Positions 14,315-57,200 of a stretch of DNA of 64,000 bases are shown here, piece after piece. How positions within the stretch are numbered: the stretch's first letter is position 1; each line of letters starts with the position of its first letter. The stretch comes from Escherichia coli (GTDB lineage Bacteria > Pseudomonadota > Gammaproteobacteria > Enterobacterales > Enterobacteriaceae), in NCBI RefSeq assembly GCF_965641715.1, contig NZ_OZ282453.1. One strand, written 5' to 3'. The translations under genes and the position numbers were made by a program. Under the pieces are notes generated by a model. It ran no database searches. It was not told where the DNA came from and saw nothing but the letters and a program-made list of their open reading frames with translations.

Positions 14315-14317
14315 CAG

Positions 14318-18905: not shown

Positions 18906-18909
18906 ACCA

Positions 18910-20765: not shown

Positions 20766-21074
20766 GCGTTTCAGGGGGTAAATAGCATTCCCTGAACGAT
20801 GTCGCAGCGACACAACAGAATGGCTGTATTTCTCACACTGAGCGTGAAAAAGGCGTGAGGGCTTTTGATTTGATGGGGTGACAGATAAGGCCGTCAAAAT
20901 CGCACTGAGGCGGCAAGAACATGCAGTCAACGCGGTGGGATTGCGTAAGAGCCTGACCGTCGATGATGGCGATAAGCTGGAAGACGTCGTGAAATTATCT
21001 GATTGATACAGGAGCTGGAGAGTCGGGGCATAAATTTTTTATGCCCCGGCGAAGCAGCAGACAAGCGAAGCGCG

Positions 21075-23872: not shown

Positions 23873-24026
23873 TGCTCCCCCTGAGTAATTACAGGAAGAT
23901 TACCCGCGCGCGAAACCGTTCTCCTTAACCCCCTGTTCTGGCCATTTTCTTACAACAAAAGCCCTTTGTATCAGCCTGTTACGCTTTGCCATCATGACTG
24001 AAGAACCAGTCAGAGGGGCAAAAACT

Positions 24027-31993: not shown

Positions 31994-34288
31994 ATGAGTA
32001 CCACAACACGAAAATTTAAAACCGTTATCACCGATACGGGTGCAAAAAAATTAGCTCAGGCAGCCGCGCCAGATGGTAAGCCTGTCCGCCTGACTCATAT
32101 GGCCGTGGGCGACGGTGGCGGCACGTTGCCCACACCAGACAGTAAGCAGACCCGTCTGGTGCATGAGGTGTGGCGACACACTGTTAATCGCGTCATCCTG
32201 GACGCAACACATCAGAACCGCATTATTGCGGAGCTGGTTATTCCTCCAGAAACGGGCGGATTCTGGATCCGGGAAATTGGTGTGTTTGATGAGCACGGCG
32301 ATTTAATCGCAGTAGGCAATACTGCCGAAAGTTACAAGCCAACCGTTGCCGAAGGGTCAGGACGTGCACAAACATTTCGCACCATTCTGACCGTATCCAG
32401 CACTGCCACCGTGGCGCTTACCGTGGATAACACCATGGTAATGGCCACAGTGGATTACGTGGATGACAAACTGAAAGAGCATGAACACTCACGACGTCAC
32501 CCGGACGCCTCGCTGACCGCAAAAGGCTTTGTTCAACTTAGCAGCGCCACTAACAGCACGTCTGAAACGCTTGCGGCAACGCCAAAGGCTGTTAAGGCGG
32601 CATATGACCTGGCTAATGGCAAATACACCGCACAGGACGCTACCACTGCGCGAAAAGGGATAGTTCAGCTCAGTAGCGCCACCAACAGCACGTCTGAAAC
32701 GCAGGCTGCAACGCCGAAAGCAGTAAAGGCCGCGTATGACCTTGCTAACGCAAAATATACCGCTCAGGACGCCACGACGGCACAAAAAGGGATAGTCCAG
32801 CTCAGTAGTGCCACCAACAGCACGTCTGAAACACTGGCCGCGACATCGAAAGCGGTTAAGGCGGTAATGGATGAAACGAACAAGAAAGCGCCCTTAAACA
32901 GTCCTGCGCTGACCGGAACGCCAACAACGCCAACTGCGCGACAGGGAACGAATAATACCCAAATCGCAAGCACGGCTTTCGTTATGGCTGCGATTGCCGC
33001 CCTTGTAGATTCGTCACCTGACGCACTGAATACGCTGAACGAGTTAGCGGCGGCGCTGGGAAACGACCCGAATTTTGCGACCACCATGACTAACGCGCTT
33101 GCGGGTAAGCAACCGAAAGATGCCACCCTGACGGCGCTGGCCGGGCTTGCTACTGCGGCAGACAGGTTTCCGTATTTTACGGGGAATGATGTCGCCAGCC
33201 TGGCAACCCTGACAAAAGTCGGGCGGGATATTCTTGCGAAATCGACCGTTGCTGCCGTTATCGAATACCTCGGTTTACAGGAAACGGTAAACAGGGCTGG
33301 TAACGCCGTGCAAAAAAATGGCGATACTTTGTCCGGTGGGCTTACTTTTGAAAATGACTCAATCCTTGCCTGGATTCGAAATACTGACTGGGCGAAGATT
33401 GGATTTAAAAATGATGCCGATGGTGACACTGATTCATACATGTGGTTTGAGACAGGCGACAACGGCAATGAATATTTCAAATGGAGAAGCAAACAAAGCA
33501 CCACAACAAAAGACCTGATGAATCTTAAATGGGATGCTTTGTATGTTCTTGTTAAAGCTCTTTTCAGCAGTGAAGTAAAAATATCGACAGTCAATGCACT
33601 GAGGATATTTAATTCATCTTTTGGTGCCATTTTTCGCCGTTCTGAAGAATGCCTGCATATCATCCCTACACGAGAGAATGAGGGGGAAAATGGTAATATA
33701 GGGCCACTACGTCCCTTTACGCTTAATCTCAGAACTGGCCGCATAACTATGGGGCATGGTCTGGATGTTACAGGAGATATAACAACTAACGCCTGGGTGT
33801 ATGCAAACAGGTTTGCTATTAATAGTGGCTCAACCTCATGGATTGATATGCGAAACCAGAATGTCATTTTTGGTAGAAACGCAGTATCAACAAGTTCTGC
33901 GCAGGCTTTGTTAAGACAAGACCATGCAGAACGCAAATTTTTTGTCGGTGGACTTGGTAACTACCAGTTTGGTTTTTACATGATTAATAACTCAAGGACA
34001 GCCAATGGCACCGATGGTCAGGCGTACATGGACAATAACGGTAACTGGCTTTGTGGCTCGCAAGTTATTCCTGGCAACTATGGCAATTTTGATTCCAGAT
34101 ATGTGAGAGATGTTCGCCTGGGTACGCGAGTTGTTCAATTGATGGCGCGTGGTGGTCGTTATGAAAAAGCCGGACACGCAATTACCGGATTAAGAATCAT
34201 TGGTGAAGTAGATGGCGATGATGAAGCCATCTTCAGGCCAATACAAAAATACATCAATGGCACATGGTATAACGTCGCACAGGTGTAA
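31994..34288 (+). CDS. H: Tail fibre protein (P2 gpH-like N-terminus fused to a Mu S / P1 S-type invertible C-terminus)
   Basis: 764 aa; 3 x 44-aa fibre repeats; crossover site at 33258-33283; C-terminal ...FRPIQKYINGTWYNVAQV. Confidence 0.9.
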   Translation: MSTTTRKFKTVITDTGAKKLAQAAAPDGKPVRLTHMAVGDGGGTLPTPDSKQTRLVHEVWRHTVNRVILDATHQNRIIAELVIPPETGGFWIREIGVFDEHGDLIAVGNTAESYKPTVAEGSGRAQTFRTILTVSSTATVALTVDNTMVMATVDYVDDKLKEHEHSRRHPDASLTAKGFVQLSSATNSTSETLAATPKAVKAAYDLANGKYTAQDATTARKGIVQLSSATNSTSETQAATPKAVKAAYDLANAKYTAQDATTAQKGIVQLSSATNSTSETLAATSKAVKAVMDETNKKAPLNSPALTGTPTTPTARQGTNNTQIASTAFVMAAIAALVDSSPDALNTLNELAAALGNDPNFATTMTNALAGKQPKDATLTALAGLATAADRFPYFTGNDVASLATLTKVGRDILAKSTVAAVIEYLGLQETVNRAGNAVQKNGDTLSGGLTFENDSILAWIRNTDWAKIGFKNDADGDTDSYMWFETGDNGNEYFKWRSKQSTTTKDLMNLKWDALYVLVKALFSSEVKISTVNALRIFNSSFGAIFRRSEECLHIIPTRENEGENGNIGPLRPFTLNLRTGRITMGHGLDVTGDITTNAWVYANRFAINSGSTSWIDMRNQNVIFGRNAVSTSSAQALLRQDHAERKFFVGGLGNYQFGFYMINNSRTANGTDGQAYMDNNGNWLCGSQVIPGNYGNFDSRYVRDVRLGTRVVQLMARGGRYEKAGHAITGLRIIGEVDGDDEAIFRPIQKYINGTWYNVAQV
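32519..32890 (+). repeat. Three tandem 132-bp (44-aa) tail-fibre repeats
   Basis: KG(F/I)VQLSSATNSTSET-AAT-KAVKA-YDLAN-KYTAQDATTA repeats starting at 32522, 32654 and 32786. Confidence 0.85.
33258..33283 (+). repeat. Left recombination site (gix/cix-like)
   Basis: ttatcgaatacctcggtttacaggaa; close to the remembered gix sequence TTATCCAAAACCTCGGTTTACAGGAA. Confidence 0.8.
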
Positions 34289-34819
34289 ATGATGCAGCAT
34301 TTAAAAAATATTAAGTCTGGAAATCCTAAAACGAAAGAACAATATCAGCTAACAAAGAATTTTGATGTTATCTGGTTATGGTCCGAAGACGATAAAAACT
34401 GGTATGAGGAAGTGAAAAACTTTCAGCCAGACACAATAAAGATTGTTTACGATGCAAATAATATTATTGTCGCCATCACTAAAGATGCCTCCACGCTTAA
34501 CCCTGAAGGTTTTAGCGTCGTTGAGGTTCCTGATATTACAGCCAACCGCCGCGCTGATGATTCAGGAAAGTGGATGTTTAAGGATGGAGCTGTAGTTAAA
34601 CGGATTTATACGGCAGACGAACAGCAACAACAAGGCGAATCACAAAAGGCCGCATTGCTTTCCGAAGCTGAATCAGTCATCCAGCCGCTGGAACGCGCTG
34701 TCAGGCTGAATATGGCAACAGACGAGGAACGCACACGACTGGAAGCATGGGAACGCTACAGTGTTCTGGTCAGCCGTGTGGATACGGCAAATCCTGAATG
34801 GCCACAAAAGCCTGAATAA
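34289..34819 (+). CDS. G: Tail fibre assembly chaperone (P2 gpG / Mu U-like), expressed orientation
   Basis: 176 aa, directly follows H. Confidence 0.85.
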
Positions 34820-34847
34820 AAATTAAGGCCCGCGATCGGGCCTTGTC

Positions 34848-35381
34848 TCATTCAGGTTGTTCGGGAAATGTTACTGGCAGGCTGGAGGTGTCTGTAGATT
34901 CGACTTTCTGCGCATAGAGCATCCACTCGGTTAATTTTTGTTTATTCTCGTCGGAAATGATGCCCAGCCGTAGCTGTGAGTCCCATAGCTGGGTTTTATC
35001 CCTAACGAGCTGTAGCAGGCTTTGCTTTTCATTTTCCGCCTGCTGCCTCTGCTCTTCCTCGGTATAAGTTCGCTTTACCACTACGCCATCTTTGAACATC
35101 CATTTACCAGAAATATCAGCCCGGCGATTTGCTGTAATATCAGGAACCTCAACGACGCTTGCGCCTTCTGGATTAATTGCTGAAACATCCTTTTCAATAC
35201 AAATAATAACGTTGTTGTGGTCATAGACCATTTTCAACGTATCAGGCTGAAAGTTCTTTTGTTCCTCATACCAGTTTTTCCCATCCTCTGTATAAAGCCA
35301 TTTGATGTTAAATTGTTTCGTTAGCTGGTATTGCTCTTTTGTTTTAGGGTTGCCAGCAGTAATATTTTTTAAGTGCATCAT
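34848..35381 (-). CDS. Alternative tail fibre assembly chaperone (U'-like), silent orientation
   Basis: 177 aa; N-terminal ~110 aa nearly identical to 34289..34819; divergent C-terminus. Confidence 0.85.
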
Positions 35382-35383
35382 AA

Positions 35384-36335
35384 TTAAATACTCCCCGCGT
35401 TATACCACGTCCCATTAATGCAATACTGAATTGGCCTTGCCTGAGTTGTATCAATTAATTCATCACGGTTTCCGTTAACTGAACCCGTAACGACATAACC
35501 TGACCTGTCAGACCAGCCGGGACCATTCCATGTCTGAACAGATGACAGACCGCCAAGGCGAATACCTGTAATAAACCTTGAGTTACATTCTGCCTGCGTG
35601 TATGCACCAACATCTCCCGCAGAGGGTTTGCGGGTCGTGGTGTAAAACTCTGACCAGTTAGCCTCAAATCCATAACCATCACGCGCTGAACGATAAAAAA
35701 TACCGCCGTTCCTGTAATTCACGCGGAACTGTACAGCAGGGCAGCTCCCCGTATTCATATTGAAGTGGAGGATTAATGTCGATGCACCGCTGATATCTGC
35801 ATCATAAACACCGCTATTCCAGTTCCAGCCAACAGCTTTATCATTTGCAACCCTGCTTCCTGTTTGCCCTAAAGCAAATGCAGGCTGCTGGTTTTTCGTG
35901 TTGTAGTCTCTTCGCCAGCCAGGAGCATAAGCATCACCATGATTAATATAAGTGAATTGAGCGTTAGAGGTGCCGCCTCCGGTGGAAGTGCTTGGTGTTG
36001 TTACACGGATGGTCATGGCACCTTTATTACCCATAACCTCAATAACGCAACCTGCAAGATGAATAGTTCCACAGCCAGTATCGGTAATAATTTTATTATT
36101 GCCGTATGACCATGAACATTTGCACATCCAGTATGGGTGATTGAATGCCCCTTGAGAATCCAGCCATTCAATCAATTGTGCCGTTGTCCAGTTCCCTGCC
36201 CCTGTACTAATAGCACTGTGAAAAGCGCGACATGCACCAATATTTTTTGTGAAGGTATCTTTTCCTGGAATATCTGCGCCGTTCTGGTTTTTCTGTAATG
36301 CGCCAGAAGCCTGATTTACCGTTTCTTGTAAACCG
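35384..36335 (-). CDS. Alternative tail-fibre C-terminal segment (S'-like), promoterless and start-less in this orientation
   Basis: Open frame runs from the crossover centre (36335/36336) to the stop at 35384; after inversion it joins the H frame as ...[29 protein letters not shown]... Confidence 0.8.
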
Positions 36336-36348
36336 AGGTTTTAGATAA
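36323..36348 (-). repeat. Right recombination site (gix/cix-like)
   Basis: ttcttgtaaaccgaggttttagataa, the inverted copy of 33258-33283. Confidence 0.8.
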
Positions 36349-36402
36349 TGGCCGTTTCTGACCTGCATGGCATGATTTACGCTTTTGGACGGGAGATTCA
36401 GC

Positions 36403-36990
36403 GTGCTGATTGGCTATGTAAGGGTATCAACAAATGACCAGAATACAGACCTGCAACGAAACGCTCTTGTTTGTGCAGGATGTGAACAAATATTTGAAGA
36501 TAAATTAAGCGGGACAAAGACAGACCGACCGGGATTAAAACGCGCTTTAAAGCGTCTTCAAAAAGGTGACACGCTGGTTGTCTGGAAACTGGATCGCCTC
36601 GGGCGAAGCATGAAACATCTGATTTCTCTCGTCGGGGAACTACGGGAGCGAGGGATTAATTTTCGCAGTCTGACCGACAGCATAGATACATCTTCTCCAA
36701 TGGGGCGTTTTTTCTTCCACGTGATGGGTGCCCTGGCTGAAATGGAACGTGAATTAATTGTTGAACGTACACTGGCCGGACTGGCAGCAGCGCGCGCACG
36801 GGGGCGCACAGGCGGACGTCGCCCGAAGCTGACAAAAGAACAGCATGAGCAAATAGCAAGGCTGATTAAAAACGGTCACGACAGAAAACAACTGGCAATA
36901 ATTTACGGCATTGGTACATCGACGATTTATCGTTACCACCCCGCAGGAGAATCAAGCGGAGCAATAGAGAAGAGTCAGAAAACAAAATAA
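36403..36990 (+). CDS. Serine DNA invertase (Gin/Cin/Hin/Pin family)
   Basis: (GTG)LIGYVRVSTNDQNTDLQRNAL..., catalytic Ser, C-terminal HTH; GTG 36403 follows gggag. Confidence 0.9.
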   Translation: MLIGYVRVSTNDQNTDLQRNALVCAGCEQIFEDKLSGTKTDRPGLKRALKRLQKGDTLVVWKLDRLGRSMKHLISLVGELRERGINFRSLTDSIDTSSPMGRFFFHVMGALAEMERELIVERTLAGLAAARARGRTGGRRPKLTKEQHEQIARLIKNGHDRKQLAIIYGIGTSTIYRYHPAGESSGAIEKSQKTK

Positions 36991-37017
36991 CCGCTAATCT
37001 GACCATTAGCGGTTTTT
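36989..37017 (+). terminator. Intrinsic terminator after the invertase gene
   Basis: aaccgctaat / attagcggtt stem followed by a T run. Confidence 0.7.
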
Positions 37018-37025
37018 GTGTTAAA

Positions 37026-37520
37026 TCAGAACAGCCCTTTAACTGAACTGGCCGCGCTGTTAAGAGATGATGTCACCTTATCTTTGAAGCCGGACAGCAT
37101 ATCGCTGAACGATGAGGATTGCAGGCGCTCCCGCAAATCCTCATCACAGCGTTCAAGGGTCAGTGAAAATTCTATCTTTTTCGCCTTACCGTAGCGATCA
37201 AACTCGGAACGGGTCGTATTCGTTCCGGTCAGGACATACATGCCGTAAATCTGCCCGACACCATCAATCAGAGGCCAGGGGCGTCCTGTATATGCCTGCG
37301 TGGTCAGCAACGAAAGCGACACTTCGCCACCTGTAATTTCAGGATAAAGCACACCAGAAAGAACGATGCGATCATCGCCTGCCCCGATATACTGCCAGCT
37401 TGCTGAACGGTTAACGCGTTCATTTTTCACATGCCGCCAGCTTTTGTTTTGCTGTAACTGCTGATGCGGCAACGTGCGCAGCTCAAAAACAAACATGCCG
37501 TAGATCATCATCATGGCCAT
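37026..37520 (-). CDS. U: Tail protein (P2 gpU-like)
   Basis: FVFELRTLPHQQLQQNKSWRHV...LSGVLYPEITGG versus gpU FVFMLRTVPYQELQYQRSWRHV. Confidence 0.85.
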   Translation of the reverse strand: MAMMMIYGMFVFELRTLPHQQLQQNKSWRHVKNERVNRSASWQYIGAGDDRIVLSGVLYPEITGGEVSLSLLTTQAYTGRPWPLIDGVGQIYGMYVLTGTNTTRSEFDRYGKAKKIEFSLTLERCDEDLRERLQSSSFSDMLSGFKDKVTSSLNSAASSVKGLF

Positions 37521-37526
37521 GACTCC

Positions 37527-40334
37527 TCAATCTTTATCGTAAAAACTGCCACGCCCGGCACGGGCGCGCCGTTCCATTTCTGCCCTGACCATTTCACCGA
37601 CCAGTTTCGCCAGTTCGCGGGGATTCTGCGTAACAACGTTATGCAGATGAACATGAATTTCACCACCAAATCCGGAGGCAACAGGCTCCCGGTTACGGGA
37701 AGTTACAGGAACTGATGCCACTGGAGATCGTATGGCCTCCGCCACCGGGCGGGAGCTGGCCGCAACAACAGGGACCAGCGCCGGAGGCAGCGGAGCCGGG
37801 ACCACGGGGGTGATATTAATTGCGGGGGCAGGCTTACTGACCTGCGCAATCTTCCGCTCCTGCCACTCCCCACGAACAGCAAGTGCGCGGGGCAGGTTCT
37901 TAAAGACAATATCGCCGGGGCCAATGCGTTTTTTCGTCTCATCAACCAGCTTACCTGTGTTATCAGCAATTTTGCTGAGTCTGCGTAGCGTCCCGGTATT
38001 GCTGTCTGTGAGCGGTTTATTGTCTTTGGGGTTATCACCTCCGGTGCCATTGCCATTTTCCACAGGCTTCGGCGGATTGATTTTCGCCAGGTCCCCCTGA
38101 AGCAAGGCAACCTTGTCCTGAAGAATGGCCGCACGCTGTGCGTCTTCGATTTTCTTTCTCGCCCTTTCCGCTTCATCCGGAAGCACACCGAGTTTTTCAA
38201 GTATCCACGCCAGCGTATCCAGCAGCATTTTTGCAGGCGTCAGAACAAGCTGTAGCGCGCCACCAAGAACGTTACCGAATATCTCGCCAGCACTGGTACA
38301 TTTATCCAGCGTTTCCTTGCTGGACTCCATCGGTGACAGCAGCGATTTAAACCAGTTAAAGAGCTGAATAATCCCATCGCGCACGACATCAAAAACAGGA
38401 CCAAACCGTTCAAAGGTTTCGCGCAACGGAGCCAGCCGTTCCATAATTCCACTGAACACCCCGGCATAAAACGCCTTGATGGGTTCCCAGTATTTCCAGA
38501 TGAGAACCGCCGCAGCCACAAACGCGGCAACAATCAATCCGACCGGACTGAACAGCGCCCCGATAGCGCCACCCAGCAACGAGATGGAACCTGTTACCAT
38601 TCCCCATAGTGCTGGCAGCACCCTGACGACATTCATTGATCCGGTCAGGAGAGAAAAACCAAGACGTAACGTGGCCAGTTTCCCGTGAAGCACGCCAATA
38701 ACCAGCGACAACGAGCCAATCGTTGCAGTCATTGCCAGCAACGCACCGCCTGCTATCAGTAGCTGGCGCGTCAGTGCCGGATGGGCCTGCGCCAGCGCCG
38801 TCACCCTTGATACCACCCGCGTGAGCCACTGCGTGACAGAACGCAGCGGGCCGTCAATCAGATCTGCAATGCGGATGCGCAACCCTTCCCATGCACTGCC
38901 GAGTGATTTCAGATCGCCGTCAAGGTTGTTGGCCATAACCTTTGCTGTGCGTTCAGCCTCACCGCGCGCGCCTTCAAGTTCTTTTCTCAGTTTAGGTAAG
39001 GAACCGTCACCCGCTGCATCAACGAGCGCCATAAACGATGTGAAAGCCTCTTCTCCGGCAATGTCCTTAAAGAACGATACCCGGTCAACTTCCCCGTATT
39101 TGCGGGTGGCTTTATAAAGGTCGGCCAGCACATCCTCCATCGGGCGCATTTTGCCGTTCGCGTCAGAGACTGCCACACCAAGCTCTTTCAGCGCCTCTGC
39201 TGCCGCCTTTGGCGGTGATGCAAGACGAGCCAGGCTGGCACGCATTGCCGTCCCGGCATCACTTCCCCTGATACCCATATTCGCCAGCACGCCCGCCATC
39301 GCTGCGGCCTGCTCCAGCGATATTCCCAGCTTGCCCGCCACCGGACCTGCATATTTCATGGTTTCGCCCAGTGCGCGAAGGTCAGTGTTGGTACGGGTAA
39401 ACGCTGCGGTGAGCGTGTCACCGACCCGGTCCATCTGGTCAGCAGAAAGGCCGAACTGCGTCAGGATATTTGAGCCAATATCTGCCGTCTCGCCGAGATC
39501 CATACCGCCAGCCGTTGCCATGCTCAGCACTCCGGGGAGCGCAGCCTGAATGGCCTGCGGTGTGAAGCCAGCCATTGCAAGAAATGCCTGCCCACTGGCG
39601 GCATCGCCTGCGGTGAACTGCGTTTCAGAGCCAAGTTTTAACGCCTGCTCACGCAGCGCCTTAAACTGCGGGCTGTTCTGGTCGATTCGCGTCAGCGCCT
39701 GAACGCGGGACATCTCTTTGCCGAACCCGATCGCGGGCTGCAAAAAACGCCCGGCAGCATAGCCGCCCGCCGCTGCCGCACCAATTGCCAGCGCACCACC
39801 TGTTTTCAGTTTTCCCGCGGTTTCCTGCGCGCGCGAATACCGCTCACGCGCCCGCGTTACACGCGCAAGCGCCTGCCGTTCGCGTTCAAGCTGGTTGTTG
39901 TACTGTTCGGTGCGTCTGATGGCCTGCTGGATGGTGTTATCGCTGCCTGTCAGGGAAATGCCGTGGCGTTTCAGCTCTCCGCCAAGTTCCCGCATTTTCT
40001 GAATTTCCCGTGTGCGCGATTCATTCAGGCGTTCAAGCCGGGTGCTTAACTGCTGCATCAGCTTTTGTTGTTTTTCGCTGAGCACTGTACCCGTGCGTTG
40101 TAACTGATTAAGAGCGTTAAGCTGGCGTCGTGCTTTCAATATGCCAGCATCCGCTTTACTGACAGCGTCACGGGCGCGCTCAAATGAACGCGCCTGACGC
40201 TCGAGATTTTTGATCGCCCCCTGCGTTCGCTGGATGGAGTCACCAAACTGCCCCATCAGGCGGCGGGCGTTTTCGGCAGGCCGGGTCAGCCTGTCAACGG
40301 CGCTGAAAGCGACCCGGATATCAAGAGTCTTCAT
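37527..40334 (-). CDS. T: Tail tape-measure protein (P2 gpT-like)
   Basis: ~935 aa, coiled-coil plus TM-rich middle; ATG 40334 follows gggaa. Confidence 0.85.
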   Translation of the reverse strand: MKTLDIRVAFSAVDRLTRPAENARRLMGQFGDSIQRTQGAIKNLERQARSFERARDAVSKADAGILKARRQLNALNQLQRTGTVLSEKQQKLMQQLSTRLERLNESRTREIQKMRELGGELKRHGISLTGSDNTIQQAIRRTEQYNNQLERERQALARVTRARERYSRAQETAGKLKTGGALAIGAAAAGGYAAGRFLQPAIGFGKEMSRVQALTRIDQNSPQFKALREQALKLGSETQFTAGDAASGQAFLAMAGFTPQAIQAALPGVLSMATAGGMDLGETADIGSNILTQFGLSADQMDRVGDTLTAAFTRTNTDLRALGETMKYAGPVAGKLGISLEQAAAMAGVLANMGIRGSDAGTAMRASLARLASPPKAAAEALKELGVAVSDANGKMRPMEDVLADLYKATRKYGEVDRVSFFKDIAGEEAFTSFMALVDAAGDGSLPKLRKELEGARGEAERTAKVMANNLDGDLKSLGSAWEGLRIRIADLIDGPLRSVTQWLTRVVSRVTALAQAHPALTRQLLIAGGALLAMTATIGSLSLVIGVLHGKLATLRLGFSLLTGSMNVVRVLPALWGMVTGSISLLGGAIGALFSPVGLIVAAFVAAAVLIWKYWEPIKAFYAGVFSGIMERLAPLRETFERFGPVFDVVRDGIIQLFNWFKSLLSPMESSKETLDKCTSAGEIFGNVLGGALQLVLTPAKMLLDTLAWILEKLGVLPDEAERARKKIEDAQRAAILQDKVALLQGDLAKINPPKPVENGNGTGGDNPKDNKPLTDSNTGTLRRLSKIADNTGKLVDETKKRIGPGDIVFKNLPRALAVRGEWQERKIAQVSKPAPAINITPVVPAPLPPALVPVVAASSRPVAEAIRSPVASVPVTSRNREPVASGFGGEIHVHLHNVVTQNPRELAKLVGEMVRAEMERRARAGRGSFYDKD

Positions 40335-40850
40335 TGTCTGTATTCCCGCTGCGAAGTGCCGCCCGCTCACGCCAGCTAACCACTTCGCCGGGAGTCATCA
40401 TGAAGATTTCGGCGGGCGACCAGTTAAAAATGGCGGCAATATCCGCCACAAAGTCTTCTATGTGCTCAAAGCACACAACCGTGATCAGGCTTCCGTCGCC
40501 TGTTCGTTCTTCCCGCCAGAGTCCGCACCGCTCAAAAAATTTACGGCAACCACACATAACTGAATAAAGTCACGGGATGCCATTTTTTTGATCGTCACTT
40601 CATCCAGTCGCGGTGATGTCACGCGTGACAGCAGCGTAAACATGGATTCCGCTTTCAGATTCAGCACATCAGACAGCGACAAATCTCGCAGAGATCCAGC
40701 CTGCTCAATAGCCCCGGTGATCTCCACATACGTGATTTTTTCGCCGCCTCGCTCAATTGGTTGGGTAAGTTTTACGCCACGCTCACTGGTTTCTTTCACA
40801 GTGTCAGTAACTACCGTGTTTTCGGTATCGATGTTTTTCGTCTCTTTCAT
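40321..40850 (-). CDS. gpE+E' -1 frameshift fusion chaperone
   Basis: T TTT TTG heptamer (complement of 40533..40539) in the E zero frame; the -1 frame is open to 40321 (ORF 40321..40557). Confidence 0.7.
40485..40850 (-). CDS. E: Tail assembly chaperone (P2 gpE-like)
   Basis: 121-aa ORF between FII and T; contains the slippery TTTTTTG. Confidence 0.8.
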   Translation of the reverse strand: MKETKNIDTENTVVTDTVKETSERGVKLTQPIERGGEKITYVEITGAIEQAGSLRDLSLSDVLNLKAESMFTLLSRVTSPRLDEVTIKKMASRDFIQLCVVAVNFLSGADSGGKNEQATEA

Positions 40851-40904
40851 CAGGAAACTCCTTTCAGTCAGAGGCGACGCACTGCGCCGCCTGCATATTA
40901 CTTA

Positions 40905-41417
40905 TCAGCCAAGCCCAAGCGCGGAACGGATACGGTCAGGCACAATGTCCTTGCCGTCCTTCCGGTAGATGAAGTTCAGCAGGTCAATCTCCCACAACGG
41001 GCGATCGTTAACACTCAGCTTGTAGTAGGTGTTTTTAATGGCGTAAGTGTGTGATGTGGCTTCGCCCTGTTTGGCTTCCCCCATATCAATTTCCGTCACA
41101 CGTCCGCGCATTTCGACTTCATACAGGTCGCTTTCTGCATCGGTGTAGTATTCACCCGCAAAACGCAGCAGCGTGCCGTCAATCGTGCCGCCATACTTAA
41201 GGAACAGCTCACGAACTGCGCCCCCCATGACAAAGCTCGCATCAAGCGCGGAGTCGTCCAGACCGAGATCAATACTTACCGCACCCATCATGCCGCCACC
41301 CCGGTAGCTGTCGGTTTTGCGCGTCAGCTTAGGCAGAGTGACGGACGTCACCTTACCCACTTCGTTTTCACCATCCACAAACAGCGTAAAAAAGCGAAGA
41401 TGTTTTGGCACAGCCAT
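40905..41417 (-). CDS. FII: Tail tube protein (P2 gpFII-like)
   Basis: 170 aa, follows the sheath gene. Confidence 0.85.
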   Translation of the reverse strand: MAVPKHLRFFTLFVDGENEVGKVTSVTLPKLTRKTDSYRGGGMMGAVSIDLGLDDSALDASFVMGGAVRELFLKYGGTIDGTLLRFAGEYYTDAESDLYEVEMRGRVTEIDMGEAKQGEATSHTYAIKNTYYKLSVNDRPLWEIDLLNFIYRKDGKDIVPDRIRSALGLG

Positions 41418-42601
41418 CAGGCACCTCCCAGCACCGCAAATGCGGGTTCAAAGTATTCATCAGTAAACGTCTGGTAAAGCTCCATGTCTTCCAGTGGCGG
41501 AACGGGCGTATATTTGTAGCGAATACGCACGCGCCCCTGACGTAAATCCGTGGTGCTGTTATCCACCACGTCATACCAGCACTCCGCGCCAATCAGTTTC
41601 CCGGCAGTAACCAGTGAATCCAGTTTTGCCCTGATGGCACTGATAACATCCTTCACGTTCGCAGGCGTCAGTGGACTGTCGATGGTTTCAAACTGCGCTT
41701 CCGCAATTGAATCAGCCAGCACCTGTGCGGTTCGGGTATACACCTCAAAGATGTAGGCGTTCGTTTCCGGTGTGCGGTTGCCCCAGAAGCGGAACCCGTT
41801 GCGACGAATAATGGTCGTGATTTCTTTGTTGTTGAGGCTGTTGGCATCGCTGTCTTCGGCCTGCAACGACCAGAACACATGCTTCGACATCCCCAGCACA
41901 TTTTTAACCGGAACGTTGGACAGTGATTTGTGCCACCCCTGCTCATGGTCAATGTACGCACGAAGGCCGCACGCATAGGCAGGTGCGGGGAACGTTTCGT
42001 TTTTGCCACTTTTCGGGTTGTAGGCGATGAAGTCCGGCCATAAGAGCATCACCTCACGTTCGTTGAATTTCTGGCGGTAGGTAATCGCCTCAGCCATCGT
42101 GTTACAGCCGTGACATGAGGCATACACAAACGCGCGCAGTTTACCCGCAATCACGCACAGGGATTTTGTTACAGCCTCCGTGTCCAGCTCCGGCGCGGCC
42201 AGAATACGCGGACGGTATCCGATGCTTTCATCCTGCTCTGCAACAAGCAGCGCATACATCCCCGTATAGCTGCCGTCAGATTCAGAACCACCGATAACCA
42301 GTTGATCCTGCGTCTTTCCGTCTTCTTCTTTGTGTTCAGCCACGCGAACGACGATCACCTTTGTGCTCACCTGGTCTGCGATGGCCTTAAGCGCACGATA
42401 AAGCGTCCCCGTTGTCCCGCATTTTCCCAGCACGTCATTGACGCGGGTCAGCAGTGTGGGCTTGTTCAGCGGGAACAGCTTCGCGTCCGCATCATCCGCC
42501 GTTGCCACGATACCGATAACGCTGGAATCAACATCGTTAATCGCTGTTACCAGGTCGGTATTTTCCGTAACACGGGCACCATGAAAACGAGTTTCACTCA
42601 T
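41417..42601 (-). CDS. FI: Contractile tail sheath protein (P2 gpFI-like)
   Basis: 394 aa, size and order as in P2. Confidence 0.88.
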   Translation of the reverse strand: MSETRFHGARVTENTDLVTAINDVDSSVIGIVATADDADAKLFPLNKPTLLTRVNDVLGKCGTTGTLYRALKAIADQVSTKVIVVRVAEHKEEDGKTQDQLVIGGSESDGSYTGMYALLVAEQDESIGYRPRILAAPELDTEAVTKSLCVIAGKLRAFVYASCHGCNTMAEAITYRQKFNEREVMLLWPDFIAYNPKSGKNETFPAPAYACGLRAYIDHEQGWHKSLSNVPVKNVLGMSKHVFWSLQAEDSDANSLNNKEITTIIRRNGFRFWGNRTPETNAYIFEVYTRTAQVLADSIAEAQFETIDSPLTPANVKDVISAIRAKLDSLVTAGKLIGAECWYDVVDNSTTDLRQGRVRIRYKYTPVPPLEDMELYQTFTDEYFEPAFAVLGGA

Positions 42602-42758
42602 AGCTTCAGCCCCTTGTATCCGTTAAATGATTCGGCAACAATCATCACCCACCACGCGCGTAATCTCACCCCTGCGCCGTTCTCCCGCCACGGCGACAAC
42701 AAAAAGCAGTAACCCCCTCCGCACGCACATGCGACCATGCCGCACAGGGAGGGAGCAG

Positions 42759-43868
42759 ATGACCGACACCACCATGCAATTGCTCAGTCAGGGCACAGAC
42801 CCCGTGAAAATGCCGGATTTTGATATTCTCGCGGAGGGTAAAACGCTGTCAGGCGTGGCAGAGCGCCTGATGAGCCTGTCAGTGACCGACAACCGGGGAT
42901 TTGAAGCGGACCAGCTCACCATCACGCTGGATGATGCGGATGGTCAGTTGCAGCTACCGCCACGGGGCGCGCGCCTGACGGTTCTCATTGGCTGGAAAGG
43001 AGAACCGCTGACAGAAAAAGGCACTTACATTGTTGATGAAATCGCTCACGAAGGACCGCCGGACAGGCTGACTGTTTCAGCCAGAAGCGCAGATTTTCGG
43101 GATGAATTTAACGTTAAACGTGAGGTGTCCTGGCATGATGTGACCGTTGAGCGTGTGGTATCCGCCATCGCTCATCGGTACGGTCTGAAACCGCAAATCA
43201 GCGAAATGCTGATGGATATCGAAATCGACCACGCCGACCAGACCGAAGAAAGCGACATGTCCTTTCTTACGCGCATGGCGGAAATGCTGGGCGCAATCAC
43301 CACGGTAAAAAGCGGTAATCTGTTATTCATTATGCCAGGCGGTGGCGTGAACGCACAGGGCCAGCCGTTGCCCTCGTTCGCCATCACGCGCAGCAGTGGC
43401 GATCGCCATCAGTTCCGCATTGCTGACCGCGAAGCGTATACGGGGGTACGCGCTTACTGGCTTGATCTTAATTACGGGAAAAAGAAAAAAGTCAGCGTGA
43501 AACGCCGCAAACCGCCAAAACCCAAAAAGGAGAAAAGCAGCAGCCGTGAAGGTGATTATATGGAAGGTGCGGAAGGCAATGTGTTTGTGTTACGCAAGAC
43601 TTATCAGAACGAGCAGGCAGCAAGACGCGCAGCGGCGGCAAAGTGGCAGCAACTACAACGCGGAGCCGCATCATTCTCCATCACGCTGACACGTGGACGA
43701 GCAGAACTCTACCCCGAAATGCATGGCACGGTAACAGGATTTAAAAGCGAGATTGATAATCAGGACTGGATTATTGCGAAAGCCGAGCACACCATTGATA
43801 ACAGTGGCTTTACCACGCAGCTTGAGCTTGAAGCAAAAATCCCGGAATGGATAGCAGAAACAGAGTGA
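42759..43868 (+). CDS. D: Late control / tail protein D (P2 gpD-like)
   Basis: ATG 42759 follows gggaggga; 369 aa; the earlier part of ORF 42627.. is likely non-coding. Confidence 0.85.
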   Translation: MTDTTMQLLSQGTDPVKMPDFDILAEGKTLSGVAERLMSLSVTDNRGFEADQLTITLDDADGQLQLPPRGARLTVLIGWKGEPLTEKGTYIVDEIAHEGPPDRLTVSARSADFRDEFNVKREVSWHDVTVERVVSAIAHRYGLKPQISEMLMDIEIDHADQTEESDMSFLTRMAEMLGAITTVKSGNLLFIMPGGGVNAQGQPLPSFAITRSSGDRHQFRIADREAYTGVRAYWLDLNYGKKKKVSVKRRKPPKPKKEKSSSREGDYMEGAEGNVFVLRKTYQNEQAARRAAAAKWQQLQRGAASFSITLTRGRAELYPEMHGTVTGFKSEIDNQDWIIAKAEHTIDNSGFTTQLELEAKIPEWIAETE

Positions 43869-43910: not shown

Positions 43911-44171
43911 ATGTTCCGTTGTCCGCTTTGTGGCGCATCTGCCCGTATCCGCACCAGTCGTCCGGAAAATGATTCAAACACCGTGCGGCAAAAGTATTAC
44001 CAGTGTAACAATCTGGAATGCGGCGTATGCTTCTCAACACTGGAAGCTTTCCATAAATTCACATCGAAACACGCCTCCGGCGTTCACTCTTCAGAAGGTA
44101 TCCCGTGGCATGAGCTGCCAGCTTCACACAGGGGAAACAATCAGATGAGTTTGCCTTTATCTCAGAATTAA
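43911..44171 (+). CDS. ogr: Ogr/Delta-type zinc-finger late transcription activator
   Basis: MFRCPLCGASARIRTSR...YYQCNNLECGVCF versus P2 Ogr MFHCPLCQHAAHARTSR...YHQCQNVNCSATF. Confidence 0.88.
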   Translation: MFRCPLCGASARIRTSRPENDSNTVRQKYYQCNNLECGVCFSTLEAFHKFTSKHASGVHSSEGIPWHELPASHRGNNQMSLPLSQN

Positions 44172-44259
44172 CAGGCAGAATTGCCGGAGTAACAAAAAAG
44201 CGATAGATTACGCGCGGGTGCCTTTCGGCTGATGGTCGGAGGGAATACCCGAAGGCCAG

Positions 44260-44496
44260 ATGTGGAAAGGCCCCGGAAAACATTTCTGTTTAACCGAGGC
44301 CCTAACACTTCTTACCTTCGCAAGTAGAAGGTTAGCGCCTCTCCTCTCAGGAGACAAGCGTTATGACGCAAATTCCGTTAAAAACCCTGTTACTTTGCAT
44401 AACTGCGGTAGCGATAATCTGGATCCTCCACACATCACCGTGCGAGTTACGATTCAGGTTTGCTGGCACGGAAATTGCGGCATTCTTACTATGTAA
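44260..44496 (+). CDS. mok-like overlapping reading frame of the hok-type locus
   Basis: ATG 44260 follows gaagg; overlaps the whole toxin ORF in another frame, as mok does in R1 hok/sok. Confidence 0.4.
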   Translation: MWKGPGKHFCLTEALTLLTFASRRLAPLLSGDKRYDANSVKNPVTLHNCGSDNLDPPHITVRVTIQVCWHGNCGILTM

Positions 44497-44503
44497 TAAG
44501 TAA
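44363..44503 (+). CDS. Hok/Gef-family type I toxin, 46 aa (not in the ORF track)
   Basis: MTQIPLKTLLLCITAVAIIWILHTSPCELRFRFAGTEIAAFLLCNK: TM helix plus the CE(L/I)R...E(V/I)AAF signature shared with HokA/HokB/Hok-R1; the SD aggaga is sequestered in tctcct-ctc-aggaga. Confidence 0.75.
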   Translation: MTQIPLKTLLLCITAVAIIWILHTSPCELRFRFAGTEIAAFLLCNK

Positions 44504-44512
44504 GATAACCGC

Positions 44513-44534
44513 GACGGGGGAGTAATCCCCCGTC
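44513..44534 (+). other. GC-rich hairpin at the 3' end of the hok-like mRNA
   Basis: gacggggg agtaat cccccgtc. Confidence 0.5.
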
Positions 44535-44590
44535 AATCGGTTGCTAAGGTTGGTCGAAACGGCATCCTATCTCACAGACATGAACAACAA

Positions 44591-44623
44591 ACCCGCAGCG
44601 TAAAAACTGCGGGTTTTCTTTTT
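44591..44623 (+). terminator. Intrinsic terminator
   Basis: acccgcag / ctgcgggt stem followed by tttctttttg. Confidence 0.75.
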
Positions 44624-44664
44624 GCTACCCTCACAAATGAGGGCACCATACATAAGCAATAGGC

Positions 44665-44715
44665 ATAACAGATCGATGCAATAAATCCGATCGATAAAAA
44701 CGATCGATTTGTTAT
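44665..44715 (+). promoter_or_regulatory. Dyad-symmetric region with three GATCGAT (Dam GATC) sites upstream of the com-like gene
   Basis: gatcgat at 44671, 44689 and 44702; outer arms ataacagatcgat / atcgatttgttat. Confidence 0.6.
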
Positions 44716-44752
44716 CATATCGGCAGCAGTAACCACACAAGAGGTGCCGCAA

Positions 44753-44950
44753 ATGACGCAAAATGTACGATGCAAAAATTGCAACAAACTACTTGCCCGC
44801 GCCTCATTTCACTACATTGAAATAAAATGTCCGCGCTGCAAAACACTTAACCAGATAACGAGAGCCATCGAGCACCCCACACACATGAGGAGTTATGACC
44901 GTGGGGATCGCAATCCAGCACCAACCAGCACATACGCCAGAACACACTAA
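44753..44950 (+). CDS. com: Mu Com-like zinc-finger translational regulator
   Basis: MTQNVRCKNCNKLLARASFHYIEIKCPRCKTLNQITRAIEHPT versus Mu Com MKSIRCKNCNKLLFKADSFDHIEIRCPRCKRHIIMLNACEHPT; aagaggtg RBS. Confidence 0.85.
   Translation: MTQNVRCKNCNKLLARASFHYIEIKCPRCKTLNQITRAIEHPTHMRSYDRGDRNPAPTSTYARTH
44875..44906 (+). promoter_or_regulatory. Stem-loop enclosing the SD and ATG of the methyltransferase gene
   Basis: CCCCAC (44875-44880) / GTGGGG (44901-44906) flank gaggag and ATG 44895. Confidence 0.5.
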
Positions 44951-45701
44951 GGTTTATCAGACTGACAATGTCACGCTCTGTTGTGGGAATGCACTGGAAA
45001 TATTGCCGCTGATTGAGCCAGAAAGCATTGATGCCTTAATCACTGACCCGCCTTACAGTTCGGGTGCGACACACAAGGCCGGACGCACCAATCAGGGCAG
45101 CCATGCAAAATATCTGAACGGCGAGAACCTTCACCGCTTTGATGGGTTCGCGGGTGAAAACATGGACGCCCGTTCGTGGGCTTACTGGACACAATTATGG
45201 ATGGCACAGGCACACCGCGCAGTCAGGCCAGGCGGTTATGCCATGGTATTTACTGACTGGCGACAACTACCAGCTTTAACCGATGCGTTTCAGGCCAGTG
45301 GCTTTACATGGCGCGGCATCATTGCGTGGAACAAGGGGAGGGGGTCACGAACACCACATACCGGGTATTTCCGGCATCAGTGCGAATACATCGTCTGGGG
45401 CAGCAAAGGCCATTTAGATAAATCGCCTTCGGGGCCGTTCGACGGCTGCATGACGTACCCGGTTATCCCGTCAAAGAAAATGCACCCGACCGGAAAACCA
45501 GAAGAACTAATGGCGGAACTGGTCAGGACTGTGAATAGTGGCGGAACAGTCCTTGATCCTTTTATGGGGTCAGGGACAACGGGTGTGGCTGCACTGAAAG
45601 CAGGGCGAAAATTTATTGGTATAGAAACCAGTGATCATTATTTTGAGGTAGCAGCGCAGCGGCTTCGGGGGACTATTACCACAACCATTTCGGCTACATA
45701 A
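44895..45701 (+). CDS. Beta-class N6-adenine/N4-cytosine DNA methyltransferase
   Basis: Motif IV DPPY (res 51-54) lies N-terminal to motif I VLDPFMGSGTTG; the start lies 56 nt inside the com-like ORF. Confidence 0.85.
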   Translation: MTVGIAIQHQPAHTPEHTKVYQTDNVTLCCGNALEILPLIEPESIDALITDPPYSSGATHKAGRTNQGSHAKYLNGENLHRFDGFAGENMDARSWAYWTQLWMAQAHRAVRPGGYAMVFTDWRQLPALTDAFQASGFTWRGIIAWNKGRGSRTPHTGYFRHQCEYIVWGSKGHLDKSPSGPFDGCMTYPVIPSKKMHPTGKPEELMAELVRTVNSGGTVLDPFMGSGTTGVAALKAGRKFIGIETSDHYFEVAAQRLRGTITTTISAT

Positions 45702-45705
45702 GACA

Positions 45706-45728
45706 AAGCCCGCATTTTTTGCGGGCTT
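45706..45728 (+). terminator. Hairpin after the methyltransferase gene
   Basis: aagcccgc attttttt gcgggctt. Confidence 0.6.
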
Positions 45729-45742
45729 GTATATCATTACTG

Positions 45743-45762
45743 ATGTGGACAGTTTGTGGATG
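45743..45762 (+). repeat. Candidate Int arm-type sites near attR (2 x TGTGGA, 11-bp phasing)
   Basis: atgtggac 45743-45750 and tgtggatg 45755-45762. Confidence 0.45.
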
Positions 45763-45802
45763 TTTATAAGAAATAAGCTAATAGAAACAATTTGTTAGCT
45801 TT

Positions 45803-45829
45803 ACAAAAAACGCGCCCGAAGGCGCGTTG
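45803..45829. repeat. attR core, which is also the functional raiA intrinsic terminator
   Basis: acaaaaaacgcgcccgaaggCgcgttg; minus strand reads caacgcgccttcgggcgcgttttttgt. Confidence 0.85.
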
Positions 45830-49044: not shown

Positions 49045-49106
49045 CCTAAAGAATCAAGACGATCCGGTACGCGTGATTTTCTTTTCACATTAATCTGGTC
49101 AATAAC

Positions 49107-49135
49107 CTTGAATAATTGAGGGATGACCTCATTTA
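49107..49135 (+). promoter_or_regulatory. sigma32 heat-shock promoter of clpB
   Basis: CTTGAAT - 13 nt - CCTCATTTA fits CTTGAAA / CCCCATnT. Confidence 0.65.
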
Positions 49136-49173
49136 ATCTCCAGTAGCAACTTTGATCCGTTATGGGAGGAGTT

Positions 49174-52188: not shown

Positions 52189-53730
<1,542 letters not shown>

Positions 53731-53815
53731 CCTTAAAGAAGCGTACTTTGCAGTGCTCACACAGATTGTCTGATAGAAAGTGAAAAGCAAGGCGTCTTGC
53801 GAAGCAGACTGATAC

Positions 53816-53891
53816 GTCCCCTTCGTCTAGAGGCCCAGGACACCGCCCTTTCACGGCGGTAACAGGGGTTCGAATCCCCTAGGGGACGCCA
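53816..53891 (+). tRNA. gltW: tRNA-Glu (UUC) in the 16S-23S spacer
   Basis: gtccccttcgtctagaggcccagg...cccTTTCACgg...ggttcgaatcccctaggggacgcca; 76 nt. Confidence 0.95.
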
Positions 53892-54084
53892 CTTGCTGGT
53901 TTGTGAGTGAAAGTCGCCGACCTTAATATCTCAAAACTCATCTTCGGGTGATGTTTGAGATATTTGCTCTTTAAAAATCTGGATCAAGCTGAAAATTGAA
54001 ACACTGAACAACGAAAGTTGTTCGTGAGTCTCTCAAATTTTCGCAACACGATGATGGATCGCAAGAAACATCTTCGGGTTGTGA

Positions 54085-56988
<2,904 letters not shown>

Positions 56989-57080
56989 ACAACGCCGAAG
57001 CTGTTTTGGCGGATGAGAGAAGATTTTCAGCCTGATACAGATTAAATCAGAACGCAGAAGCGGTCTGATAAAACAGAATT

Positions 57081-57200
57081 TGCCTGGCGGCCGTAGCGCG
57101 GTGGTCCCACCTGACCCCATGCCGAACTCAGAAGTGAAACGCCGTAGCGCCGATGGTAGTGTGGGGTCTCCCCATGCGAGAGTAGGGAACTGCCAGGCAT
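57081..57200 (+). rRNA. rrfG: 5S rRNA
   Basis: tgcctggcggccgtagcgcggtgg ... gggaactgccaggcat; 120 nt. Confidence 0.97.

What the first reader, a model, noticed from the sequence alone, without database searches (positions are those of the whole stretch)
37026..42758. The FI-FII-E-E'-T-U tail block is inverted relative to canonical P2 gene order, separating D from its operon
- In P2, 186 and related phages as I recall their maps, the order is H-G-(Z/fun)-FI-FII-E-T-U-D-ogr, all on one strand.
- Here H, G, the invertase, D and ogr are on the plus strand. FI-FII-E-T-U (41417-42601 down to 37026-37520) is on the minus strand.
- U therefore ends 9 bp from the invertase terminator, and FI starts 157 bp from a divergent D.
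- A simple 5.6-kb inversion explains this. Its left breakpoint is directly beside a serine invertase gene.
- The FI/D divergent spacer contains sequence blocks also present in the P/O late control region (see the separate finding). This fits D having acquired its own late promoter.
- I found no good gix-like site at either junction. There is only a weak half-site resemblance (ggtttttgtgttaa, 37011-37024), so the mechanism is open.
Basis: partly seen in the sequence, partly recalled or inferred. Interest (0 to 1): 0.6.

Follow-up and report, generated by a model that had tools for sequence, protein, structure and literature searches.

The report
Inverted tail block: a lineage trait
The tail sheath-to-U gene block does lie backwards compared with phage P2, but this is the normal, inherited gene order of the very common P88-like (Xuanwuvirus) branch of P2-like phages, not a rearrangement of this prophage.

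Summary
H, G, the invertase, D and ogr are on the plus strand. U-T-E'/E-FII-FI (37026-42601) are on the minus strand, and a 157-bp divergent spacer separates FI from D.

- The same order occurs in plaque-forming phage P88 (95% identical), in Citrobacter phiSM, in Salmonella SEN4 and in Klebsiella 3LV2017.
- It is collinear in 1348 of 5426 complete E. coli genomes.
- It occurs in 80/80 viral contigs, and in all 50 loci from species-representative Enterobacterales genomes whose D protein is nearer this one than P2's.
- In both the D and the FI trees, loci with the inverted order form one clade (100/100 bootstrap). Four outgroup phages have the canonical order. So this was one ancient inversion.

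The invertase is incidental. Its two gix sites flank the Mu-like tail-fibre segment (33258 and 36323). Relatives without an invertase have the same order. No E. coli genome (0/1412) has the block in the other orientation.

The FI/D spacer looks like a conserved bidirectional late promoter. It has one Ogr-type site, T(G/C)T-N12-ACA (42681-42698), with -10-like hexamers 46 bp away on each side. This mirrors P2's P/O promoter pair and would explain how D is expressed.

The finding is ordinary and of low interest.

The parts
31994..34288 (+). Tail fibre gene H (constant part plus the currently expressed variable part)
   Evidence: ORF. 65% aa identity to P2 H. Its 3' part is about 91-95% nt identical to the Mu G and P1/P7 C segments.
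33258..33283 (-). Left gix-like crossover site, inside H
   Evidence: 2 mismatches to the 26-bp Mu gixL sequence that I supplied from memory; 0 matches expected by chance. It lies in the 65-nt inverted repeat I2.
34289..34819 (+). Tail fibre assembly gene G
   Evidence: 93% aa identity to P2 G.
34848..35381 (-). Alternative tail fibre assembly gene (G'/U'-like)
   Evidence: Pfam Caudo_TAP, E=4e-37. Inverted repeat I1 pairs it with G.
35384..36175 (-). Alternative tail-fibre C-terminal segment (Hv'/S'-like), promoterless in this orientation
   Evidence: Pfam gp37_C. Homologous to Mu/P1 S'.
36323..36348 (+). Right gix-like crossover site, just upstream of the invertase gene
   Evidence: 2 mismatches to the same Mu gixL query, inverted relative to the left site.
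36385..36990 (+). Gin/Cin/Pin-type serine DNA invertase; its substrate is the 33.26-36.35 kb tail-fibre segment
   Evidence: Pfam Resolvase E=1.5e-50 plus HTH_7. About 91% nt identity to the Mu/D108 gin region.
36989..37014 (.). Bidirectional rho-independent terminator shared by the convergent invertase and U transcription units
   Evidence: 10-bp stem with T-runs on both strands; sequence. Homology with invertase-less relatives starts at about 37020.
37026..37520 (-). Tail gene U
   Evidence: Pfam Phage_P2_GpU E=1.5e-38. 46% aa identity to P2 U.
37527..40370 (-). Tape measure gene T
   Evidence: Pfam PhageMin_Tail E=2e-58. 33% aa identity to P2 T.
40321..40557 (-). E' (GpE-family) reading frame, reached by -1 frameshift from E
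   Evidence: Pfam Phage_P2_GpE E=2.4e-12. TTTTTTG run in the overlap. Annotated as a GpE family protein in relatives.
40485..40850 (-). Tail assembly chaperone gene E
   Evidence: 32% aa identity to P2 E. Same position as in P88.
40905..41417 (-). Tail tube gene FII
   Evidence: Pfam Phage_tube E=7.5e-47.
41417..42601 (-). Tail sheath gene FI
   Evidence: Pfam sheath domains. 46% aa identity to P2 FI.
42641..42646 (-). Predicted -10 element of the leftward FI promoter (GATGAT on the minus strand)
   Evidence: An nAnnAT hexamer lies 46 or 47 bp from the site centre in 98/100 relatives' spacers. Inferred, not mapped.
42681..42698 (.). Predicted Ogr-type activator site TCT-N12-ACA at the centre of the FI/D spacer
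   Evidence: T[GC]T-N12-ACA is present in 100/102 distinct spacers, 78-89 bp from the FI start codon; 5% of shuffled spacers have any match. By my count on the P2 sequence, the P2 pF site lies 83 bp from FI.
42733..42738 (+). Predicted -10 element of the rightward D promoter (GACCAT)
   Evidence: An nAnnAT hexamer lies 46 or 47 bp from the site centre in 82/100 spacers. Inferred, not mapped.
42759..43868 (+). Baseplate hub / late control gene D
   Evidence: Pfam Phage_GPD. 48% aa identity to P2 D. Start chosen by analogy with P88.
43911..44171 (+). Late activator gene ogr
   Evidence: Pfam Ogr_Delta E=5e-14.
23937..23954 (.). Matching activator site TCT-N12-ACA in the P/O divergent late region
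   Evidence: Pattern search; sequence. GTTCT-N12-ACAACAAAAG is shared with the FI/D site.

Best explanation
The window holds a P88-like (Xuanwuvirus, Peduoviridae) prophage of about 36 kb, inserted between pheL/pheA and raiA.

In this whole branch of P2-like phages the FI-FII-E/E'-T-U block was inverted once, long ago, relative to the ancestral P2 order. The inverted order has been inherited ever since.

How I think it works:
- The block is transcribed leftward from the old pF late promoter and stops at a terminator next to the variable cargo slot. That slot is the counterpart of P2's Z/fun hotspot. Here it holds a Mu-like invertible tail-fibre cassette and its invertase.
- D was cut off from the operon. 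It is transcribed rightward from a second promoter in the same 157-bp spacer.
- One Ogr-type activator site, T(G/C)T-N12-ACA, sits in the middle of the spacer with a -10-like hexamer 46 bp to each side. It probably activates both promoters, as P2's single site does for pP and pO.

Shown: gene order, distribution, monophyly, sequence conservation and geometry. Inferred: promoter activity and Ogr dependence.

The neighbouring serine invertase only flips the tail-fibre segment between its two gix sites.
For: Identity and order:
- establish the genes, their strands and the P2 reference order.
- The late region of P88 (23.2 kb) is 93% covered at 95.5% identity, collinear.

Same order elsewhere:
- phiSM, SEN4 and 3LV2017.
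- E. coli UTI89 and an invertase-less E. coli prophage.
- 1348 of 5426 complete E. coli genomes.
- 80/80 IMG/VR loci, with D 64-99% identical.
- 50/50 loci from species-representative genomes, in about 25 Enterobacterales genera, whose D is nearer the window's. All 30 loci nearer P2 are canonical.

One event:
- Inverted loci form a single bipartition with 100/100 bootstrap in NJ trees of both D and FI.
- Four outgroup phages (hosts Pseudomonas, Mannheimia, Burkholderia, Vibrio) are canonical.
- Structural proteins other than H and G are 25-62% identical to P2's, and FI, FII, U and D are all 44-48%. This argues against a foreign module.

Invertase irrelevant.

Promoter model.

Viability of phages with this order: PMC5285337 and PMC6456863.
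Against: - No transcript mapping exists for this lineage in anything I could search, so the D promoter and its sharing of one activator site are inferred from conservation and from analogy with P2.
- The left half-site is TCT here and in about 65% of relatives, not P2's TGT.
- The loose pattern T[GC]T-N12-ACAAC is not over-represented in the window as a whole: 4 matches against 3.7 expected. Its weight comes from position and conservation.
- The inversion is too old for its breakpoints or mechanism to be recovered.
- Relatedness inflates conservation counts among the closest spacers. The 32 diverse representatives still show the site.
Confidence: 0.93

Rival explanations
1. A recent 5.6-kb inversion specific to this prophage, catalysed by the adjacent serine invertase acting on cryptic sites at the block ends.
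For: The invertase gene abuts the left end of the block.
Against: - The same order is found in hundreds of independent genomes and in isolated phages.
- The only two gix-like sites in the window flank the tail-fibre segment.
- No inverted repeat links the two block ends.
- Relatives without an invertase have the same order.
Confidence: 0.01
2. An assembly error, or a population in which both orientations coexist (a programmed invertible tail block).
For: None beyond the unusual order relative to P2.
Against: - The arrangement is collinear in 1348 complete genomes from many laboratories and in phage isolates.
- A chimeric query representing the flipped U-to-D junction was matched across the junction in 0 of 1412 E. 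coli genomes that contain both halves.
Confidence: 0.01
3. Not an in-situ inversion. At the origin of the clade, the FI-U module was replaced by a module acquired from another phage and inserted in the opposite orientation.
For: Phage genomes are mosaic. H and G here were clearly exchanged: 65-93% identical to P2, against 25-62% for the other structural proteins.
Against: - FI, FII and U (inside the block) are 44-46% identical to P2's, and D, Q, P and V (outside) are 44-48%.
- Median identity between inverted and canonical loci is 0.50 for FI and 0.51 for D.
- The FI and D trees give the same bipartition at 100/100 bootstrap.
Confidence: 0.05

Closest known systems
Escherichia phage P88 (Xuanwuvirus P88, Peduoviridae; NC_026014 / KP063541)
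   Same: Gene order and strands are identical from the terminase to D, including the invertible tail-fibre cassette, invertase, U-T-E'-E-FII-FI on the opposite strand, and divergent D. Identity is 95.5% nt over 93% of its 23-kb late region.
   Different: - Tape measure slightly longer here (947 aa ORF against 2808 nt in P88).
- The ogr region and right-arm cargo differ in the records' annotation.
- The early region was not compared.
- Integration site: here pheA/raiA.
Bacteriophage P2 (Peduovirus P2; NC_001895)
   Same: - Same gene set: Q P O N M L ... V W J I H G, FI FII E E' T U D ogr.
- Same Ogr/Delta-type activator.
- Same kind of late-promoter site, about 83-89 bp upstream of FI.
- A divergent promoter pair sharing one site exists at P/O.
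   Different: - In P2, FI-U-D is one rightward operon with U and D overlapping.
- Here FI-U is inverted and D stands alone behind a second divergent late promoter pair.
- Most structural proteins are only 25-62% identical.
Salmonella phage SEN4 (Senquatrovirus) and Klebsiella phage 3LV2017 (Reginaelenavirus)
   Same: Same inverted FI-U block with divergent D. They belong to the same clade by D identity (62-70%).
   Different: Different genera and hosts. No invertase beside U; other genes fill the slot between the tail-fibre genes and U.
Mu G segment/Gin, P1 C segment/Cin, e14 P segment/Pin invertible tail-fibre systems
   Same: The 33.26-36.35 kb cassette (Hv-G / G'-Hv' plus invertase) is 89-95% nt identical to these. 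It has two inverted gix-like sites.
   Different: That system accounts only for the tail-fibre segment. It has no relation to the orientation of the 5.6-kb tail block.

Membership tests
P2-like tail module (Peduoviridae FI-FII-E/E'-T-U-D-ogr) | All seven gene families present | tested here: met
   Pfam: sheath, tube, GpE, tape measure, GpU, GPD and Ogr_Delta. tblastn to P2 gives 32-48% identity for these genes.
P2-like tail module (Peduoviridae FI-FII-E/E'-T-U-D-ogr) | Canonical single-strand order FI to D, as in P2 | tested here: not met
   FI-U are on the minus strand; D and ogr are on the plus strand. This is the clade's own order, not a defect.
Xuanwuvirus (P88-like phages) | High nucleotide identity and collinearity with P88 | tested here: met
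   95.5% identity over 93% of P88's 23.2-kb late region, in two collinear blocks. 95.2% over 97% of an 11-kb query. The early region was not compared.
Xuanwuvirus (P88-like phages) | Produces infective particles | not testable with these tools
   P88 and phiSM do (PMC5285337; PMC6456863). This prophage has intact ORFs for all late genes examined, but induction was not tested.
Gin/Hin/Cin/Pin serine-invertase switch acting on the 5.6-kb block | Serine invertase encoded adjacent | tested here: met
   Resolvase + HTH_7 protein at 36385-36990.
Gin/Hin/Cin/Pin serine-invertase switch acting on the 5.6-kb block | Two inverted 26-bp crossover sites flanking the segment | tested here: not met
   The only gix-like sites are at 33258 and 36323, around the tail-fibre cassette. 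No inverted repeat joins about 37.0 kb with about 42.7 kb.
Gin/Hin/Cin/Pin serine-invertase switch acting on the 5.6-kb block | Both orientations found among genomes | tested here: not met
   0 of 1412 E. coli genomes have the flipped U/D junction. 130/130 related loci are in one orientation.
P2-type Ogr-dependent late promoter (for the FI/D spacer) | Partial dyad TGT-N12-ACA upstream of the transcription start (about -55) | tested here: met
   TCT-N12-ACA at 42681-42698. T[GC]T-N12-ACA in 100/102 relatives at a fixed distance from FI. The -55 position is inferred from -10-like hexamers 46 bp either side and from P2's annotated sites and transcription starts.
P2-type Ogr-dependent late promoter (for the FI/D spacer) | Cognate Ogr/Delta zinc-finger activator encoded | tested here: met
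   ogr at 43911-44171, Pfam Ogr_Delta E=5e-14.
P2-type Ogr-dependent late promoter (for the FI/D spacer) | Transcription starts and activator dependence shown experimentally | not testable with these tools
   No transcript data for this lineage were found in the searchable literature.

The most novel reading that the evidence does not exclude
A single ancient inversion of FI-U defines a large Enterobacterales-wide branch of Peduoviridae (Xuanwuvirus, Senquatrovirus, Reginaelenavirus and many unnamed prophages). It turned pF into a second bidirectional Ogr-dependent promoter pair (pF/pD) sharing one activator site. I found no explicit description of this in the open literature I could search. 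If so, it is a small, clean example of an operon split repaired by re-use of a symmetric activator site, and a handy taxonomic marker.
Probability: 0.5. Interest if true: 0.3.

Novelty: already known. Interest (0 to 1): 0.12.

Why it matters
It matters little for discovery. The arrangement is the standard map of a phage lineage that sits in about a quarter of complete E. coli genomes and is already in RefSeq as P88, SEN4, 3LV2017 and others.

Its practical value is for annotation. P2's map should not be used as the template for these prophages, and an inverted tail block beside an invertase should not be read as damage, misassembly or a switch.

The one modestly interesting point is regulatory. 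The split of D from its operon appears to have been solved by a second divergent late promoter pair around a single Ogr-type site. That is easy to test.

Tried and rejected
- **Strict TGT-N12-ACA scan of the prophage.** It hit neither late intergenic region. The site here has TCT in the left half, so the pattern was relaxed after seeing the alignment of relatives.
- **Relaxed pattern over the whole window.** It is not above chance (4 matches against 3.7 expected), so I do not use its count as evidence. I use only its position and conservation.
- **Search for inverted repeats or gix sites at the block ends.** None were found.
- **Idea that the invertase is associated with the inverted state.** Rejected: 3/47 inverted against 2/18 canonical loci from species-representative genomes have one nearby.
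- **Idea of a foreign tail module.** Rejected as unlikely.
- **Literature searches for an explicit description of the inversion.** None was found. [quoted passage not shown]
- **First tree script.** It timed out and was redone with my own NJ code.
- **PADLOC scan of cargo genes.** It gave only weak or methyltransferase hits.

Full report
**Observation**

- On the plus strand: H (31994-34288), G (34289-34819), a serine invertase (36385-36990), D (42759-43868) and ogr (43911-44171).
- On the minus strand: U (37026-37520), T (37527-40370), E (40485-40850), FII (40905-41417) and FI (41417-42601).
- A GpE-family E' frame (40321-40557) overlaps E, with a TTTTTTG run in the overlap.
- The P2 reference record has H, G, FI, FII, E, E', T, U, D and ogr all on one strand, with U and D overlapping.
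- The FI/D spacer is 157 bp.
- The invertase and U converge on a hairpin at 36989-37014 that has T-runs on both strands, i.e. a bidirectional terminator.

**Is it a rearrangement of this prophage? No.**

An 11-kb query across the region matches Escherichia phage P88 over 97% of its length at 95.2% identity, as one collinear piece. The P88 RefSeq annotation shows the identical strand pattern. Local blastn covers 93% of P88's 23.2-kb late region at 95.5% identity.

Other named phages have the same order:
- Citrobacter phage phiSM.
- Salmonella phage SEN4, genus Senquatrovirus.
- Klebsiella phage 3LV2017, genus Reginaelenavirus.

At least two of these phages are functional. P88 is mitomycin-inducible and forms plaques with a burst of about 65 (PMC5285337). 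phiSM is described as a fully functional temperate phage that lysogenises E. coli K-12 (PMC6456863).

Among 5426 complete E. coli genomes, 1348 carry invertase/U...FI/D collinear with the window over at least 80% of the 7.5-kb query. These include UTI89, JJ1886, UMNK88 and O157:H7 strains.

**How deep does the trait go?**

I scanned IMG/VR with a D-protein alignment, then ran local tblastn with the window's and P2's proteins. All 80 loci returned, with D 64-99% identical to the window's, have U- T- E- FII- FI- D+ ogr+.

The same scan of one genome per species gave a clean split.
- All 50 loci whose D is nearer the window's (60-98% identity) are inverted.
- Their record titles name Salmonella, Edwardsiella, Serratia, Erwinia, Pantoea, Kosakonia, Enterobacter, Klebsiella, Citrobacter, Pectobacterium, Brenneria, Xenorhabdus, Photorhabdus, Providencia, Morganella, Yersinia, Hafnia, Rouxiella and others.
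- All 30 loci nearer P2's D are canonical.

In neighbour-joining trees of D (outside the block) and FI (inside it), the inverted loci form one bipartition with 100/100 bootstrap support in each tree.

Four outgroup phages have the canonical single-strand order: Pseudomonas phage Dobby, Mannheimia PHL101, Burkholderia BEK and Vibrio MAR. So the canonical order is ancestral and the inverted order arose once.

The window's structural proteins other than H and G are 25-62% identical to P2's. FI, FII and U are 44-46% identical, and D, Q, P and V are 44-48%. The block therefore diverged together with the rest of the genome and was not imported. H and G are the exception, at 65% and 93%.

**The invertase is incidental.**

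- The only two gix-like sites in 64 kb have 2 mismatches each to Mu gixL (a sequence I supplied from memory), with none expected by chance. They lie at 33258-33283 and 36323-36348, in inverted orientation.
- They bracket a Hv-G/G'-Hv' cassette that is 89-95% identical to the Mu G and P1/P7 C segments.
- No inverted repeat links the two ends of the 5.6-kb block.
- In E. coli OkiPb01684 the slot between G and U holds a serine O-acetyltransferase gene and no invertase, yet the block is inverted all the same.
- Homology among E. coli relatives with different cargo begins at about 37020, just past U's stop codon.
- In species-representative genomes an invertase lies within 2 kb of the block in 3/47 inverted and 2/18 canonical loci.
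- This slot is the counterpart of P2's Z/fun hotspot. A preprint notes that this hotspot often carries an invertase (10.1101/2024.10.15.618418).
- A synthetic 800-nt query joining this lineage's U 3' end to its D 5' end, as a flipped block would, found both halves in 1412 genomes. It was never matched across the junction: 0 places with at least 80% coverage. There is no sign of two orientations.

**How D is expressed (inferred)**

I aligned 32 diverse FI/D spacers. They show a conserved central element, T(G/C)T-N12-ACAACAAA.
- It is present in 100 of 102 distinct spacers, 78-89 bp from the FI start codon. Only 5% of shuffled spacers have any match.
- By my count on the P2 sequence, the annotated P2 pF activator site is centred 83 bp from FI.
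- In the window the site is TCT-N12-ACA at 42681-42698.
- A near-identical GTTCT-N12-ACAACAAAAG lies in the P/O divergent region at 23937-23954.
- An nAnnAT hexamer lies 46 or 47 bp from the site centre in 98/100 spacers on the FI side and 82/100 on the D side. In P2's pF the -10 is 47 bp from the site centre, again by my count.
- In P2 one site centred 55.5 bp from both annotated starts serves pP and pO.

I therefore propose that the inversion carried pF and its roughly symmetric activator site next to D, and that a rightward promoter using the same site now drives D. Predicted starts are near 42634 (minus strand) and 42745 (plus strand). D is essential in P2, and P88 is viable, so some promoter must exist in this spacer. 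Activity and Ogr dependence remain untested.

**Context**

The prophage is bounded by a 20-bp direct repeat, ACAAAAAACGCGCCCGAAGG, at 9839 and 45803. It lies between the phe leader/pheA and raiA/bamD.

**Comparison and verdict**

This is a member of a known, very common phage lineage with that lineage's normal gene order.

I found no explicit discussion of the clade-defining inversion or of a pF/pD promoter pair in the open literature available here. The arrangement is plain in the public annotations, so I rate novelty as already known and interest as low.

Noticed in passing
window 33258-36990: A complete Mu G / P1 C-type invertible tail-fibre cassette: Hv-G, then inverted G'-Hv', two gix-like sites, and a Gin-like invertase. 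It is grafted onto a P2-type H gene and is 89-95% nt identical to Mu, D108, P1 and P7.
   Followed up: partly
window 14118-14315 (+): Rfam hits to isrK (65.9 bits) and C4 antisense RNA (87.1 bits), side by side in the prophage early region. This suggests a P1/P7 c4-type antisense control element in a P2-like phage.
   Followed up: no
window 17946-20930: A low-GC cargo island between replication gene A and portal gene Q, the position of P2's old/tin hotspot. It encodes a ParM/StbA-like actin (17946-18905) and a Fic/DOC-family protein (19787-20194, weak PADLOC PDC-S23 hit) with small neighbouring ORFs.
   Followed up: partly
window 44172-45822: The right arm of the prophage, beyond ogr, carries genes annotated in close E. 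coli relatives as a Hok/Gef toxin and a Com-family zinc-finger regulator. It also carries an N6/N4 DNA methyltransferase (44895-45701), a Mu com/mom-like layout with a different modification enzyme.
   Followed up: partly
window 9839-9858 and 45803-45822: A 20-bp direct repeat (ACAAAAAACGCGCCCGAAGG) bounds the prophage, which is inserted between the phe leader/pheA and raiA. 104 complete E. coli genomes share the whole right-end junction.
   Followed up: partly
L087 (NZ_JBQPOM010000071.1, 'Vagococcus sp. WN89Y'): A contig in an assembly labelled Vagococcus (a Firmicute) carries this E. coli-type prophage, with D 95-98% and FI 97% identical to the window's. It is most likely contamination or mislabelling of that assembly.
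   Followed up: no
Relatives of window 37026-42601 in E. coli O157:H7 strains and in phages 520873/503458: Many O157:H7 genomes have an IS30 insertion inside the tail block region. Two deposited 'phages' of this lineage carry an IS100 there. These copies are probably defective.
   Followed up: no
L002 (Citrobacter phage Shae_phiSM) and PMC6456863: The phiSM paper reports long non-contractile, siphovirus-like tails. The deposited genome encodes a P2-type sheath, tube and baseplate. Morphology and genome do not agree.
   Followed up: no
L005 13646-14499 (E. coli UTI89 record NZ_CP062228): In this UTI89 assembly D is annotated as a shortened 801-bp gene preceded by a pseudogene fragment. This suggests a frameshift or sequencing error in D in that record.
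   Followed up: no
window 52189-57198: A complete rRNA operon (16S, tRNA, 23S, 5S) and the RyfD sRNA (49055-49193) lie downstream of the prophage. This is ordinary host sequence.
   Followed up: no
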